Assembly: GCA_019358935.1 (NCBI GenBank)
Contig: JAHHIK010000137.1
Coordinates: 1-19,258, forward strand
Source: Tolypothrix carrinoi HA7290-LM1
Lineage (GTDB): Bacteria; Cyanobacteriota; Cyanobacteriia; Cyanobacteriales; Nostocaceae
Length of the DNA stretch: 19,258 bases
Reading direction: 5' to 3'
In this document: piece by piece, positions 9,001-15,000 of the stretch
How the letters are laid out: every line of letters begins with the position of its first letter
How positions within the stretch are numbered: position 1 is the first letter of the stretch
Position numbers: made by a program

Positions 9001-12000
9001 TTCTATGAAAAATCGTTGGTTTTACAACTAAATTTCCACGAATCAACCGGGTTTCTGGCTGTTGCGTGCGTAAGTTCTGTTCATGAATTACCGCTACGGT
9101 ATAATGTAGCACAATTATTTTTGCGCTCATTCCTATGAATTATTCGCTTCATTAGCGATGATGCCCACTACATTCAACTCGCCTAAAATCTCTGTAGCTT
9201 GAATCAATTCATTTCTAGTCACTAGACCGATTTTTCCTACCAATACAATCTGATGACAGTAGGTTGCTAAAATCCTGGCATCAACTGTGCCTAAAATTGC
9301 TGGCGCATCTATCAACACTAAATCATAGGTTTGCTCAAAGATTTGGATTAGTTCTTTCATCCGCCGAGAACTCAGTAATTTCACTGTATCTTCTGGTGTC
9401 GGTCCTGCGGTCAAAACATCGATCGCCGGGTGAATTGGCTGGATGTAATCGGGAACGGGGGTATTTGTCTCATCGACTAATAGCAGAGATAGTCCCCAGT
9501 CGTTAGAAAGCTCCAAAATGTTGTGCAGGTGCGGTTCGCGCATGTTGGCATCAATCAGCAAAACTCGCCGATGCATTCTTGCCGCACTCACCGCCAGCCC
9601 CTGCGCTATAGTTGTCTTACCTTCTGCGCTTCGTGCTGAAGTCACCATCAGTGACTTGAAGGCGTAGGGATTTGATAAAAGAATGTTTTGGTAGATCATA
9701 TCCAGGCTTTCGTGAAAGGGCAACCGAGTGTAGACACTAAGTTGTTTGTCACGATACCTGGGAGTTAAGCTGCCCTTTTCATGAAAAAACAGCGTTGAAA
9801 GCCGCTTCTTCCTGAGCGGTAAAGATAATTTCGGGACTCTGCCAAGTAACCGCAGATTTGTTAAATTTTGTAACTCTTGTGAAGAATAAATTGCATCTTT
9901 AGACATTTCCCAAATCAGGGCGATCGCAATCCCTAAAATCGGTCCGATTACCGCTCCCCCAGCTAAACGCAATGTTCTACCGCTACCGATATAAATTCCC
10001 GGTTGGGGTTCTTCCAAGACTTGCCAATCAAATCCTCCTTGAGCAATTTGCATTCCTAAAGACTGTTGCGCTTGCAGAAGTTGTTCTAATGTTTTGCGAT
10101 TAGTTTCTACTTCTGGCAACAGCCGATTGTATTCTGCGATTAAGGTGGGGTATTTGGCTAACTCTGAGCGAAGTTGCTGTTCTGACTTAGCTAAACTTTG
10201 TTCATTGGCAACTAATCCCAGAGAAGTTGTTTGTACCTGTATTAATTCTTCCAGCAACTTGAGGTCAACTTCTCCCATTTGCCCTTGCGTGAGAAGTGAT
10301 TTGCTGGTAGCGGGTGTGGTGGGTGCTTTATCTCCGAGCGATCGCCCAATTTCTTGTCGTAATAATGATAGTTGATCGGAGCGTTGCTGCGTCAATTTGG
10401 CGATCGCCGGCGAGGTGTCTGTATAGCGCAATCGTTCTTGAGCTAAAGCTAATTCGGTTTTTTGAATCTCGTTTAACAGCGTTTGATAGCGAGTTGATTG
10501 ACTCAAACGAGAAGAAATAAGCGCATTCTGCGGTGAAGCAGCCATTTTTCGCTGCAAGTTATTGTAGCGAGCGCGGACATCTTGAAGCTGTGCTTTAGTG
10601 CTTTGGAGTTGCTTTTGCGTATCGGCTAGAGAATCGAGGATAATTTTACCTTGTGCTTCCGGATCGAGTAAGTTATTTTTCCGCCGAAACTGTTCTAAAT
10701 TATTCTCAGATTTAATCACCTCTTGTTTAATTGTTGGCAGGCGATCGTTAACAAAAGAAAGTCCTTTATTCAGACGTTGCTTTTGTTGCTCTATGTTGTA
10801 ATCTTGATAAACCTTTTTTAATGCTTGCAGTACTTTTTCGGCTTTAATTGGATCTTCGTCTTTGAAGGTGATTTCAAATACTTGACTGGGAACTTTATTA
10901 ACTCCTGTCCCTGCTTCTAGTTGAGCCACAACTAAAGAACCTGGTTTAGCTTGTTTACCTTTCTTACCTAAAATATCTTCTACTTTAATATCTGGATATT
11001 CCGGACGCAGTAAATCTACAGCTTTTTGGATTAATTTAGTACTCAGCATTAGCCTTAACTGAGCAGTATAATCAACAACTTGAAAATTTGGGTCGGTAAA
11101 TTGGCTATCTGTATTTCCTTGAATATTTCTAGATTGTAAGCCTTCATACAAATTGGAACTTACCAATAATTGCATAGAGCTTTGGTATTTTGGTTTAGCA
11201 ATTGTTGCCAGAAAAATGGCAACGCACATAACTAAGCCAGAAACACCAAGGATGAGAAAGCGTCGGCGAAACAAAATTGCCGATAGTTGTCTGATGTCAA
11301 CCGCGCTTTGTGGGGAAGTAGTAATTAATTGCCCCTGATTCAGACTAGTATTAGCCACTATTAAAGTCCTTTAATCTCGACAGATGTTGAGCAAGAAAAC
11401 TTTTGGAATATTAATTTTACTAAATTGATGACGCGACAACACGCATTTATGATTCCGGGAAAAAAAATATGTTGTCTGTAAATTAATTAACGAGAGTGTT
11501 AATTTTTACTTGAATAAACCTGCGAAGAACGTAGTAAGCGGCTCTATTCCTTAAAACCCTTGCGAAGAACGTAGTAGGCAAGTCTGAATCCCCCACTGAT
11601 TGCCCAAGCTGAATTCTGACTTCTTCTTGAAGTGGGAAAAATTTTATCATTCAGTATGACAACGTTGTTTATATTCATGCTAATTTTAACAATTACAATA
11701 TGATATCTCTTGCCAAAATGGCAGATAAATTTTAAAAATTATTTTACCAAGGTATAAAATTATCTTGTTGTCACTAACGAAAGAGCATTAAAGATACAAA
11801 TGAAATAAAAAATTTTTTAGTTTTGCTTCTTAGTCTCGACATCAAATCTATCCTTTATATAGTATTTTATATCTATGAGGAAAACCAGGAATGGGCAAAA
11901 AAAGATGTTGCTTTGTTTTCCACAAAGTAGAGAAACTGAAGTAGGTGGGAGGCATACATATAACTTTCGTAATCAGTGTGGGGAGGTAGAGCGTAGCCAG

Positions 12001-15000
12001 TCTCAGATATATCATTAGCTCCAGGCTTAGATTTTACCGTGTAGAATCGTCCTCCCTCTGTATGGTGGATCGGTCCAATAGAACTCATAAAACCATCTAA
12101 CTCTTCCAAAGCCATGTTCTTTAATACTGCAAAGCCCAGAGTATAGAGCTGATTAACCCAAGCTTTTTGATCGCATGAATGAAAATCGTGTTTTTCTGGT
12201 GGATGTGCTTCTATCCATGCACTATCCCACAGAATTTCCTCTTGTTTACGCAGCTCAATGTTACTATGGAAGCTACCTCGTCCTGCTGCGTCGTCATAAG
12301 CATGACTCATCAACCAAGAGATGGGAAAGACGCTGCGTGTTGGTGGGTTTTCATCCCAGTCAATTATCAACTCCTCATCACAAAACTCTATATTCAAAGG
12401 TTTTGGAGGTTCTGTAAGCTCAGAAATATCATACATTTTCTGGAAAGAACTGGGATGGCGACACTCAAGACTTAGACAGTTATCGCGCAACCAAATGTAG
12501 TGGAAGCGTTTGCTTTTCACTGTGATAAATGAATGATTTTGCATAGTTCAAGCTTTGATTTTCTTGGTATAGGTGAGCTATTCACCCACCCATAATTTTA
12601 GATGTGTAGTTATTTAGTGCTATGTTTTACATTTTTGCGATCATCTTTTCCAGATAGACAGATTTTTCACCTTCTGGAATTGCTGCTTGAGAATGGAATT
12701 CTAGTTTGTCTTGGTTTGGAGTGAGAGTTTGATAGAGAAGTTCTTGACAATGGTTATTTTCATCAACTACGACAATTTTCGCCTGGTGTCCATTCTTTAA
12801 TACATCGGTGCGATCGCATTGTTCGTTTGCCCAAATAATTAAGACATCACCTTTGTGACATAGCAGCGCTCCCCCACCATTTGGACAAACCATGCCCGAA
12901 CCTGCTTCACCAGGTAAAACATAGGTTGACCAACGGTTGCCATTATTGACATTGACGATTTCCACTTCTTCTAAAGGCAACATTCCTACTTTTTCCAGCA
13001 AGTCTGAGTCTATGGTTACACTGCCAACATAGTCAAGCTTTGCCTCTGTCACCCTAACCCGATGAAGTTTAGCGTGCATCAGTTTGATTGTACCCATTAT
13101 TTTCCTTTTTAATTTATTTGTATAGTTAGAATTTTTGGAAAACCAGAACATACATTGGCTCTGTCTCAAATATATTGAACTGTTCTCGGCTAATTAAATT
13201 CCAAGACAACTCTTTGAGTATCTCGTGTAAAGACTCGGTGTCATTATAATAATCTACTCGCACCGTTAGTACGAAATATCCATCTGTTTTCAACAAACTG
13301 GATAGACTTTTCAACGCGCGAGGATGAGCGTGACCAAAAGTGAAAACACCTACTGCCAAGATTGCATCAAAGCTTTGTTCAGATGCAAAAGCTAGGGGTT
13401 CTTCTAGGTTTCCTTGGTAAAGGGCTGTGTAAACCTGCTTCTTCCTAGCTACTTCTAGCATTTCAAAAGACAGATCAACTCCTGCGATATTGGTATATCC
13501 CAATTCTGCAAGAGCCTCACCTACCATGCCTGTACCTGCCCCTGTATCTAGGATAGTGGCATCCTTATTTGGCAACACCTTTGCTAAAGCACTAGCTGAC
13601 TGCACTGGCGAACAACGATAAGGTTGATCTAGTTCAGTGTCGTAGACAGAAGCCCAAGCATCATATTTATGTTCTAAGCTATGTTTTTCACTATTTTCGT
13701 ATATCCAAGAAAGGCGATCGTTCACCTTTTCACATAAATAAAAGCTCCATCCTACCTGCAACGCTTTGATAGCCGTACACATTTTTTCATAAGCTGTACT
13801 CAAATCCGGATATTGAGGCAACGCTAGCACAGACAGCAGTTTATAGCTCTTGTGCAAATGTAAACTCAAGTCTTTGGCTGTCAAAACCATGAACCCCAAC
13901 TGAGTGAGAAAATCTTTATAAGACTCTAGGCTAAATATTGGTTCAAACAGTAATCGTTCATAGACATATTTGCGAGCTTCTTCGTTAATTTCCTGTGTGG
14001 GTGTTACCAAGTCATCGAATAAGAATGTACCTCTTTCCTTGAGTACTCGGTGAATCTCTCTCAAGGCTTTGGGACGCTCATGAACGTGATACAAAGCGGC
14101 TTGACTCCAAACATGGGTGAAGCTGCCCGACTCAAACGGCAGATTAGTCGCTGATGCTTTCTGAAATTCTAGGTGAAGTGAGGGATACTCCTGTGCCTTG
14201 GATTTTGCATTTTCAATGCGAACACCACTGATATCTACACCAATTACCTTGCATCCTGTCTGTTGAGCTAGCCAGATAGCTGTGTTGCCGTTGCCGCAAC
14301 CGAGGTCTAGTATTTGGGATTCTTGTGTAATCCCGCTGTGAGACAGCATATATTGATTCCAGTGTTTGCAAGCCGGTATAAAGTCTTCAGCACTAACCTC
14401 AGTTAAGTTCTCAAAATAGCCCCAATGCAAACTTCCCTCTGAGTCCCAAAAACTTTTATAGAGGCTATCTTCATTATCATAAAATGCTTCTGTGTCAGCT
14501 TCAGTAAATTGGTTTTGTGTCATAAACATTAAGAAAAATGCAGGGACGTATGACGGTTAACAATATTGAATTAGTTCACAACCCACATTCCGCTCTTAAG
14601 CGAAGAGATTAATAGTATTTCTTACTCATGACACCATCAATCTCAAAAATTATAGTACAACATATTGACCACTTTTGATCCAAATTTTCAAAAAACTACT
14701 GCAAAGCCGAAAAAGAACCGCCAAAATTGGCTTTAACTTTTGATTTTTATATTTTTAGGTGTGTAGTTCGTCAACGAGCGTGCAATGAAGTAATTTTGCC
14801 ATACGTTAGTCTAGTTAGCGAAGTTTTTTATCTGATTTTTTCAACAGTTTCGCACTCCTGACTAGACTAAGGCAGGCGCTCGCTACGCGGTCGCGGTGCA
14901 AAAGATATCTCCGGAAAATGCCAAAGAGATTTTAGGTGAAATGTCTCACGATAGTGTCAATAGATTTTTACTGAGGGAACAGTATGAACCAAAAAATTTA

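What a model noticed while it worked through the whole genome (the two positions that open the first line are those of the whole stretch)
11873..14529. Methyltransferase - second PanD - betaine-type dioxygenase operon shared with Trichodesmium
A two-domain SAM methyltransferase, a second aspartate decarboxylase (PanD) distinct from the pantothenate copy, and a trimethylamine-type 2-oxoglutarate dioxygenase (GBBH/TMLD family) form an operon that is conserved in Trichodesmium and many marine or halophilic filamentous cyanobacteria. The set suggests a beta-alanine-derived betaine pathway.
Evidence so far: g06790 is 78% identical to Trichodesmium PanD and about 45% to the housekeeping copy type; g06789 best matches [sequence left out] and trimethyllysine dioxygenases. 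Methyltransferase in 10 of 150 order genomes. In 23 named loci a PanD follows it in 20 and a GBBH-like gene lies within 5 kb in 15, including T. erythraeum IMS101, Okeania, Moorena, Symploca. The Trichodesmium copy lies at 1.12 Mb of 7.75 Mb, so is unlikely to be the homoserine methyltransferase Tery_2447 (inference). Searches in calls 169, 173, 185 found no report.
(Added by a program. Inside this text positions count along the whole contig: contig position 1 is position 1 of the stretch shown here. "Call 12" and the like, gene names such as g00115 and contig names such as C1 are that model's own, and its searches are not shown. The text may have been shortened before it was handed on; [...] marks where a part breaks off. 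The agent that wrote the report below was given it as the finding of a first reader that could run no searches.)

Follow-up and report, generated by a model that had tools for sequence, protein, structure and literature searches.

The report
Decaying beta-alanine betaine gene cassette
A mobile cyanobacterial gene set most likely turns aspartate into the stress-protective solute beta-alanine betaine and, where complete, oxidises it further, but the oxidising gene is broken in this genome and both the methylating and the oxidising gene are broken in the Trichodesmium reference strain.

Summary
The three minus-strand genes are real: a two-domain SAM methyltransferase (467 aa), a PanD (156 aa) and the first 214 codons of a GBBH/TmpA-like dioxygenase. 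The PanD follows the methyltransferase in 24 of 34 named loci, and natural PanD-methyltransferase and methyltransferase-dioxygenase fusions exist. The PanD is most likely a true aspartate decarboxylase: its clade is the only panD found in 48 of 151 order genomes, and it is the only intact panD in T. erythraeum IMS101. (1) The IMS101 methyltransferase (3 stops) and dioxygenase (a stop and a lost iron ligand) are pseudogenes. (2) The 'GBBH-like' neighbours are two subfamilies about 26% identical. (3) Here the dioxygenase is deleted, and an SDR found in close relatives is missing too. Intact relatives add a carnitine acyltransferase, a TmpB-like HD oxygenase or a stand-alone DsyD-like protein, hinting at an undescribed betaine-tailoring route. 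It is not DsyG and not Tery_2447. I found no description in print, but earlier notes of this scan already proposed PanD plus methyltransferase as a beta-alanine betaine route.

The parts
13126..14529 (-). Two-domain class I SAM methyltransferase, intact. The likely start is the second ATG at 14523 (465 aa).
   Evidence: SAM-motif Gly/Asp residues are invariant or nearly so in both domains across 44 homologues; AF2 pLDDT 92.9, pTM 0.88
13726..14529 (-). Domain 1, SDMT/RebM-fold methyltransferase; proposed beta-alanine N-methyltransferase
   Evidence: NF041675 101.8 bits vs cut-off 550; 30% to Tery_2447, 28% over 145 aa to the DsyG domain, 36% to the last domain of a PanD-MT-MT fusion; fold Z about 30, tied among AtmM, MitM and Galdieria SDMT
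13129..13725 (-). Domain 2, METTL27-like methyltransferase; role unknown (first N-methylation or an O-methylation)
   Evidence: best PDB hit METTL27 7qcb, E 2e-13; stand-alone homologues lie beside type-A dioxygenase, HD and CmcI genes in L275, L279, L280, L282
13098..13125 (-). 28-nt spacer; close relatives carry about 840 more bases here, matching an SDR gene that this genome lacks
   Evidence: run X2 contig has 843 extra bases at 13108/13109; X3 and X24 loose ends match the MT-SDR spacer of G457; best SDR match in G000 is only 35-40%
12627..13097 (-). Pyruvoyl aspartate 1-decarboxylase of a second cyanobacterial PanD clade, intact
   Evidence: TIGR00223 121.5 bits vs cut-off 106; K10, H12, G25-S26, R55, T58, Y59, N73 invariant in 120 of 120 homologues; clade distribution
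11903..12544 (-). 5' part (214 of about 373 codons) of a GBBH/TmpA-like Fe(II)/2-oxoglutarate dioxygenase, type A. It keeps H-x-D but lacks the distal His and the 2OG-binding region: a pseudogene.
   Evidence: (85% to the intact L002 copy over residues 1-214); X2 and X3 contigs continue in frame into the conserved region after codon 212
11873..11902 (-). Nine foreign codons and a stop, from DNA flanking the wzc-like gene (deletion junction)
   Evidence: same-genus G459 and G462 match the flank up to 11851 and 11846 without the cassette
11726..15145 (.). Segment absent from same-genus G460 (window 11725 joined directly to 15146) and from G461: a cassette present at this site only here
14896..15129 (+). 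Short ORF resembling an insertion-sequence remnant (family by appearance only; no Pfam support) at the upstream edge of the cassette
   Evidence: 14925-15006 has an 80% copy on C118; other contigs of X1 cover it; Pfam gave nothing over cut-off

Best explanation
A horizontally moving cassette for making and tailoring beta-alanine betaine. Step 1 (strongly inferred): PanD self-cleaves at Gly25-Ser26 and decarboxylates L-aspartate to beta-alanine. A pyruvoyl enzyme needs a free amine (established chemistry), so this step precedes N-methylation. Step 2 (inferred): the SAM methyltransferase, mainly domain 1, N-methylates beta-alanine to the trimethyl betaine. Step 3 (inferred; intact relatives only): the dioxygenase hydroxylates the carbon beta to the ammonium, as BBOX and TmpA do, giving 2-hydroxy-3-(trimethylammonio)propanoate. 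Partner genes then acylate, oxidise or chain-shorten that product. In this genome only steps 1-2 remain possible. In T. erythraeum IMS101 only panD survives, now serving pantothenate synthesis.
For: PanD clade: the only panD match in 48 of 151 order genomes, 46 of them without the methyltransferase. The cassette copy is the only intact panD in IMS101 and the only match in Moorena producens 3L, G466 and the single-contig G021. PanD lies next to the methyltransferase in 24 of 34 named loci. Other PanD lineages were recruited separately: a canonical panD next to a single domain-1 gene (L020) and a PanD-GSMT-like-SDMT-like fusion in Symploca (P0276/L017). Wang 2024 also reports a Porphyra DsyG-like methyltransferase fused to PF02261. 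One protein fuses both methyltransferase domains to a TauD/GBBH domain (P0250). Other domain-1 relatives sit beside genes making non-alpha amino acids: DAB transaminases over cut-off and a KamA-like aminomutase. Type-A dioxygenase paralogues sit beside Tery_2447 (46% to the window fragment), an enolase-family epimerase/dehydratase and SMR exporters. Two Burkholderiaceae loci place a choline/carnitine acyltransferase between panD and the methyltransferase. Beta-alanine betaine is made by SAM methylation of beta-alanine in plants and occurs in ocean samples (PMC6657504, PMC9321204; passages).
Against: There is no activity, metabolite or strain-level expression data. Domain 1 is under 31% identical to any characterised N-methyltransferase, and its top fold matches include O- and C-methyltransferases. 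The BBOX trimethylammonium cage (Tyr177, Trp181, Tyr194; PMC13257696) is only partly kept: Gly, Tyr and Glu in type A, by my numbering of the alignment. Cassette PanDs carry Gly at the E. coli Ala75 position (43 of 44, against 6 of 77 non-cassette copies), which may alter the pocket; they form one subclade, so it may only be a lineage mark. L026 and L027 hold the methyltransferase with no PanD in the locus. In the IMS101 table, the listed Tery_0689-0698 start sites show no significant salt response (FDR 0.5 or more), though that copy is dead.
Confidence: 0.55

Rival explanations
1. The methylated beta-alanine (or another methylated product) is a building block or exported metabolite rather than an osmolyte. 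The methyltransferase may methylate O or C, or a later intermediate, in a larger specialised pathway.
For: Variable partners: asparagine synthase B over cut-off, CmcI-like O-methyltransferase, nickel-pincer isomerase, tmpR/folP-like folate genes, SMR exporter, NRPS beside L001 and L019. Domain 2 is METTL27-like. A cyanobacterial PanD paralogue, CrpG, serves cryptophycin synthesis (PMC6471175, passages). DfmD shows that this dioxygenase family can rearrange or demethylate (PMC9296572, passages).
Against: The NRPS neighbours occur only in 2 of 34 named loci, both lacking an intact panD in the locus. The PanD-GSMT-like-SDMT-like fusion mirrors the glycine betaine pair.
Confidence: 0.18
2. A de novo carnitine route: the cassette PanD also decarboxylates glutamate to GABA, the methyltransferase makes gamma-butyrobetaine, and the dioxygenase makes carnitine.
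For: Cassette-specific Gly76. The acyltransferase's best PDB hits are carnitine acyltransferases. The associated SDR is closest to 3-hydroxybutyrate dehydrogenases. The Asp at the BBOX Asn191 position and Tyr205 and Tyr366 are kept.
Against: The cassette PanD is the only (intact) panD in four genomes. The full-length dioxygenase scores 221 bits against the BBOX cut-off of 415. The cage is partly lost.
Confidence: 0.1
3. A sulfonium (DMSP/DMSHB-type) pathway, with the methyltransferase as an S-methyltransferase.
For: A stand-alone DsyD-like protein lies in 12 of 34 named loci, aligning over the whole DsyD domain at 26-32%. L026 and L027 pair the methyltransferase with an aminotransferase and a 2-hydroxyacid dehydrogenase. 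Trichodesmium makes some DMSP by unknown genes (PMC11306096).
Against: Only 28% over 145 aa to the 499-aa DsyGD-type protein of Caldora (Symploca) SIO3E6. The Porphyra methyltransferase-PanD fusion and the 28-34% DsyD-like algal proteins were inactive in MSM/DDC assays. PanD's product has no sulfur.
Confidence: 0.06
4. A phosphonate route: phosphonoalanine to 2-aminoethylphosphonate to its trimethyl form, then TmpA/TmpB-type cleavage to glycine betaine and phosphate.
For: TmpA is the best NCBIfam and PDB match. A PhnZ/TmpB-like HD gene follows the dioxygenase in L002, L082 and L085. G000 has a PEP mutase.
Against: 241 bits against the TmpA cut-off of 400. TmpA's phosphonate ligands Asn187, Asn287 and Arg288 (PMC9296572) align to Asp, His and a gap. 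PEP mutase over cut-off was not found in 4 of 5 cassette genomes searched.
Confidence: 0.05
5. For this genome alone: the cassette is a silent, decaying remnant. The methyltransferase and PanD are intact only because loss is recent. This is compatible with any of the chemistries above.
For: Dioxygenase deleted, SDR lost, an IS-like edge, and the canonical panD still present. Same-genus G457 and G464 hold internally deleted remnants at other sites, and 8 other genomes of the genus showed no cassette DNA. Neighbouring genes are also broken.
Against: Both remaining ORFs are full length with all conserved residues. The two genes suffice for the core product.
Confidence: 0.4

Closest known systems
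Plant beta-alanine N-methyltransferase (Limonium latifolium BANMT, EC 2.1.1.49)
   Same: Proposed chemistry: iterative SAM N-methylation of beta-alanine to an osmoprotective betaine (PMC6657504, PMC9699165; passages).
   Different: Plant enzyme is a single trifunctional protein, and plants lack a PanD homologue (PMC6657504). Here a PanD supplies the substrate and a dioxygenase follows. I made no sequence comparison with BANMT.
GSMT/SDMT glycine betaine pathway and Trichodesmium homoserine methyltransferase Tery_2447
   Same: Domain 1 has the SDMT fold (2o57, Z 30.2). Tery_2447 has a type-A dioxygenase about 3.5 kb downstream.
   Different: 30% identity to Tery_2447 and 101.8 bits against cut-off 550; a different locus; a second, METTL27-like domain; linked to PanD.
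DsyGD (DMSP synthesis; Wang et al. 2024, PMC11306096)
   Same: Related methyltransferase fold, same group of filamentous cyanobacteria; type-B cassettes encode a stand-alone DsyD-like protein.
   Different: 28% over 145 aa; no DsyD fusion; a PanD and a dioxygenase as partners; the Porphyra methyltransferase-PanD fusion was inactive in MSM and DDC assays.
BBOX, TmpA/TmpB and DfmD (GBBH-family Fe/2OG dioxygenases acting on trimethylammonium substrates)
   Same: GBBH-like_N plus TauD architecture and H-x-D...H triad in intact copies; DfmD homologues likewise sit in operons with N-methyltransferases (PMC9296572).
   Different: Below all three NCBIfam cut-offs; altered cage and anion-binding residues; truncated here.
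PanD (E. coli, M. tuberculosis) and CrpG of cryptophycin synthesis
   Same: Pyruvoyl cleavage site and catalytic residues kept; CrpG is a precedent for a second cyanobacterial PanD in specialised metabolism.
   Different: A separate clade with Gly at the Ala74 and Ala75 positions; it can be the only panD of a genome. The CrpG sequence was not obtained, so it was not compared.

Membership tests
Aspartate 1-decarboxylase PanD | TIGR00223 over the curated cut-off | tested here: met
   121.5 vs 106 bits
Aspartate 1-decarboxylase PanD | Gly-Ser cleavage site and Lys9, His11, Arg54, Thr57, Tyr58, Asn72 equivalents (roles recalled) | tested here: met
   aligned to PDB PanDs; invariant in 120 of 120 homologues
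Aspartate 1-decarboxylase PanD | L-aspartate is the substrate | not testable with these tools
   indirect only: sole panD in several genomes; Gly76 change
SDMT / Tery_2447-type N-methyltransferase | NF041675 over cut-off, or orthology to Tery_2447 | tested here: not met
   101.8 vs 550 bits; 30% to Tery_2447, which lies at another locus
DsyG/DsyGD | About 46-50% identity to DsyG and, in DsyGD, a C-terminal PF04115 domain | tested here: not met
   28% over 145 aa; second domain is a methyltransferase. The comparator was identified as DsyGD by organism, 499-aa length and architecture (inference).
Plant BANMT | Sequence orthology and beta-alanine N-methylation activity | not tested
   no BANMT sequence was fetched; activity needs an assay
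BBOX (gamma-butyrobetaine hydroxylase) | TIGR02409 over cut-off | tested here: not met
   window fragment 71, intact orthologue 221, cut-off 414.75
BBOX (gamma-butyrobetaine hydroxylase) | Aromatic cage Tyr177/Trp181/Tyr194 | tested here: not met
   Gly/Tyr/Glu in the window's subtype; Tyr205 and Tyr366 kept
TmpA | NF049936 over cut-off and phosphonate ligands Asn187/Asn287/Arg288 | tested here: not met
   241 vs 400 bits; Asp/His/gap
Fe(II)/2OG dioxygenase, functional | Complete 2-His-1-Asp triad | tested here: not met
   window copy ends before the distal His; intact in relatives such as L002 and L005; His to Tyr in IMS101
DsyD (partner gene in type-B cassettes) | DMSHB decarboxylase activity | not testable with these tools
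   26-32% identity, motif partly changed; published homologues at 28-34% were inactive

The most novel reading that the evidence does not exclude
The intact cassette encodes an undescribed route from aspartate through beta-alanine betaine to 2-hydroxy-beta-alanine betaine, a one-carbon-shorter carnitine analogue. That compound is then O-acylated (Burkholderiaceae) or oxidatively shortened to glycine betaine by either of two unrelated enzymes, a TmpB/PhnZ-like HD oxygenase or a stand-alone DsyD-like protein. Each of these families is known to turn an alpha-hydroxy onium acid into the shorter carboxylate. This would be a new bacterial route to glycine betaine and would give single-domain DsyD proteins a function.
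Probability: 0.2. Interest if true: 0.82.

Novelty: new variant of a known kind. Interest (0 to 1): 0.58.

Why it matters
Beta-alanine betaine is measured in ocean communities, and its synthesis is cited there from plant work (PMC9321204). My searches found no bacterial genes for it. This cassette gives named, testable candidates in reef-mat and symbiotic cyanobacteria, plus candidate enzymes that modify the betaine. It also shows a secondary-metabolism panD taking over pantothenate supply: in T. erythraeum IMS101 it is the only intact panD. For this genome the value is lower, because the copy is partly decayed and the core idea recurs in earlier notes of this scan.

Tried and rejected
DsyGD orthology was rejected. 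A search for longer fusions of the DsyD-like protein found nothing, which is weak evidence. A frameshift explanation of the truncation was rejected: no downstream homology in any frame. An altered-specificity reading of PanD from Gly75 alone was dropped, because 71 of 77 non-cassette copies share it. CrpG was not obtained: the plasmid search listed no cyanobacterial hit among the 30 of 299 rows shown, and the supplement gave only an accession. Pade et al. 2016 is not in the library, so I saw nothing of it and relied on passages and Table S8 of PMC5864184. The single-sequence fold of the dioxygenase was unusable (pLDDT 37.6). No viral loci were found. The cassette PanD was in 1 of 301 genomes of the order of G005, only G005 itself. 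ESM Atlas gave generic names only. The promoter and terminator scan was at chance. Four short contigs of RNA run X24 (90-96% alike) cover parts of all three genes; they come from a relative and may be DNA, so they are not counted as expression. X1 may be the source of this DNA and is not independent. The DfmD supplement names no cyanobacteria in its text, but its neighbourhood figures could not be read. The alignment figure and FASTA of Wang 2024 could not be read either. The dioxygenase tree is a quick tree and the PanD tree is FastTree on 125 columns; both were used only for grouping. No complex prediction was run.

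
Full report
Observation. The minus strand carries a 467-aa protein with two methyltransferase domains (14529-13126), a 156-aa PanD (13097-12627) and a 223-aa ORF with GBBH-like_N and partial TauD matches (12544-11873). Spacers are 28 and 82 nt. The genome has a second, canonical panD on C10 at 45% identity. The dioxygenase matches an intact relative at 85% over residues 1-214 and then stops; no 3' half was found in the genome. It keeps H-x-D but lacks the distal His, so it cannot work.

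History of the site. Same-genus G460 joins window 11725 directly to 15146, and G461 also lacks the segment. G457 and G464 hold internally deleted remnants at other loci. All 11 genomes of the genus were searched. An independent run, X2, holds a relative about 93% alike in which the dioxygenase continues in frame and 843 extra bases lie between methyltransferase and panD. Loose ends of X3 and X24 at that point match the spacer before an SDR gene in G457. So the window's copy has lost both an SDR and half the dioxygenase. The cassette is mobile and often decays.

Distribution. The methyltransferase was found in 10 of 150 other order genomes and in none of 7 of the same family; 7 of the 10 are two-domain and 5 have the PanD adjacent. 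Of 34 named loci (some are fragments or contig ends), 24 have this PanD, 9 a type-A dioxygenase like the window's and 12 a type-B pair only 25-28% identical to it. All 12 type-B loci carry a stand-alone ureidoglycolate-lyase-like gene. Other partners are tmpR plus folP-like genes (6), CmcI-like (3), asnB (3), choline/carnitine acyltransferase (2, both Burkholderiaceae) and an HD protein (1 named locus, plus 2 metagenome loci). Of 80 metagenome loci found with the PanD alignment, 20 hold the methyltransferase.

Trichodesmium. In T. erythraeum IMS101 the methyltransferase has three in-frame stops and a changed SAM motif. The dioxygenase has a stop, His to Tyr in H-x-D and a duplication. A marine metagenome contig, L087, shows the same stop counts. 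The canonical panD at 4.629 Mb has two stops, so the cassette panD is the only intact one. Table S8 of PMC5864184 (supplement rows seen) places Tery_2447 at about 3,771,487 and names the cassette genes Tery_0692 and Tery_0693. I could not tell which of the other 11 genomes in that GTDB genus are Trichodesmium in the strict sense; 2 of 12 have an intact two-domain gene.

The decarboxylase. It passes TIGR00223 and keeps the cleavage site and catalytic residues. Its clade (57% or more identity) occurs in 54 of 151 order genomes and is the only panD match in 48; 46 of these have no methyltransferase match. Many such copies lie among housekeeping genes. The cassette copy itself is the only match in Moorena producens 3L, G466 and single-contig G021 (the first two are drafts). 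This argues for aspartate to beta-alanine. Against: cassette copies have Gly at the Ala75 position in 43 of 44 cases, against 6 of 77 outside. They form one subclade (support 91, FastTree), so this may be a lineage mark.

The methyltransferase. AF2 gives a confident two-domain model. Domain 1 has the SDMT/RebM fold, with AtmM, MitM and Galdieria SDMT tied at Z about 30, so fold does not fix the chemistry. Domain 2 is METTL27-like. Context is more telling. A single domain-1 gene sits next to a canonical panD (L020). A Symploca protein fuses a canonical PanD, a GSMT-like and an SDMT-like domain, the last 36% identical to domain 1 ('GSMT-like' is my reading of the middle domain). P0250 fuses both domains to a TauD/GBBH domain. 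Wang et al. 2024 (PMC11306096; abstract, first results sections and supplement rows read) report a Porphyra DsyG-like methyltransferase fused to PF02261 that lacked MSM and DDC activity; I did not see its sequence. The window's protein is not DsyG: 28% over 145 aa to the 499-aa methyltransferase-PF04115 protein of Caldora (Symploca) SIO3E6, which I take to be NES17792.1 by organism, length and architecture.

The dioxygenase and what follows it. Intact type-A proteins fall below the TmpA, BBOX and TMLD cut-offs. By my numbering of the PDB alignments the BBOX cage is partly lost and TmpA's phosphonate ligands are replaced. Paralogues sit beside Tery_2447, an enolase-family epimerase/dehydratase, HD proteins and SMR exporters, which ties the subfamily to betaines. 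BBOX and TmpA both hydroxylate the carbon beta to the ammonium (PMC4736438, PMC9296572, PMC10574752; passages). On beta-alanine betaine that gives a 2-hydroxy, choline-like product, the kind of group that carnitine/choline acyltransferases accept (established knowledge). The HD partner's only PDB hits are PhnZ and TmpB (weak, E about 2e-5), and the type-B partner aligns over the whole DsyD domain at 26-32%. Both families shorten alpha-hydroxy onium acids, which suggests glycine betaine as an end product. This last step is speculative: DsyD-like proteins of similar identity were inactive when tested, and HD and DsyD-like genes go with different dioxygenase types.

Mechanism and odds. Aspartate to beta-alanine is strongly inferred. 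Beta-alanine to its betaine is inferred, and the overall reading stands at 0.55. Hydroxylation at C2 in intact relatives is inferred at about 0.35, and further conversion at 0.2. Rivals are a specialised-metabolite building block (0.18), carnitine from glutamate (0.10), a sulfonium route (0.06) and a phosphonate route (0.05; PEP mutase over cut-off in 1 of 5 cassette genomes, this one). Separately, there is about a 0.4 chance that this genome's copy is silent.

Novelty. Ten literature searches (mostly listings) found no description of this cassette or of bacterial beta-alanine betaine genes. The library lacks most subscription papers, including Pade et al. 2016. Beta-alanine betaine synthesis is known in plants (PMC6657504, PMC9699165; passages). 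Seven earlier notes of this scan propose PanD plus methyltransferases as that route in other taxa; I saw them after forming my reading, and they are not evidence. What this case adds is the two-domain methyltransferase, the dioxygenase and tailoring modules, the panD takeover, and the correction that the Trichodesmium reference copy is dead. Verdict: a real, new variant of a known kind, untested, partly decayed here; interest 0.58.

Noticed in passing
L066:7487-15022 (T. erythraeum IMS101, 3.771-3.779 Mb): The homoserine betaine methyltransferase Tery_2447 is followed on the same strand by a zinc dehydrogenase, a MurL-like gene, an intact type-A GBBH-like dioxygenase (371 aa), an isochorismatase-family gene and an SDR; a similar set occurs in Okeania SIO1I7 (L288). 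These are candidates for modifying homoserine betaine, whose fate is called unknown in bioRxiv 10.1101/2021.03.10.434842.
   Followed up: partly
L013:9918-10526 and 11 other named loci: Stand-alone DsyD-like (PF04115) proteins, 26-32% to the DsyD domain. Wang 2024 reported finding no single-domain DsyD in genomes.
   Followed up: partly
window 18388-19149; L219:11769-14048: Same-genus G460 encodes a 759-aa fusion of a chlorophyll-binding PSII-antenna domain (PF00421) and an MFS transporter. The window ORF is a deleted form joined to the start of a nucleotidyltransferase gene.
   Followed up: partly
window 15432-18345: A cysC, radical SAM, DegT/DesI-like aminotransferase block shared with G460 and G461. 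The radical SAM gene is split in two here, intact (315 aa) in G460 and largely deleted in G461.
   Followed up: partly
L275, L277, L278: Large clusters of methyltransferases, CmcI-like proteins, type-A dioxygenases, enolase-family epimerase/dehydratases, zinc dehydrogenases, SMR exporters and the same SDR family: possibly a wider betaine-tailoring toolkit in this genus.
   Followed up: partly
L067:7415-13643; L065:8621-14888: Single-domain relatives of domain 1 lie beside two DAB transaminases and a D-glutamate-cyclase-like gene (Moorena producens 3L), or beside a KamA-like aminomutase (IMS101, 6.76 Mb): possible N-methylation of other non-alpha amino acids.
   Followed up: no
L026, L027, L097, L168: A variant cluster: methyltransferase, class I aminotransferase, second methyltransferase, 2-hydroxyacid dehydrogenase or nickel-pincer isomerase, and CmcI-like protein, with a sodium:solute symporter in L026; no PanD in L026, L027 or L168.
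   Followed up: no
G000:C53:55079-55894: The window's genome encodes a PEP mutase over cut-off within a 438-aa frame, so it may make phosphonates.
   Followed up: no
L002, L082, L003-L006, L010: tmpR (over cut-off) and folP-like genes travel with type-A cassettes and are duplicated in IMS101; possibly one-carbon support for heavy methylation.
   Followed up: no
window 5497-6258: 253-aa ORF that looks like a transposase remnant by appearance; no Pfam match.
   Followed up: no
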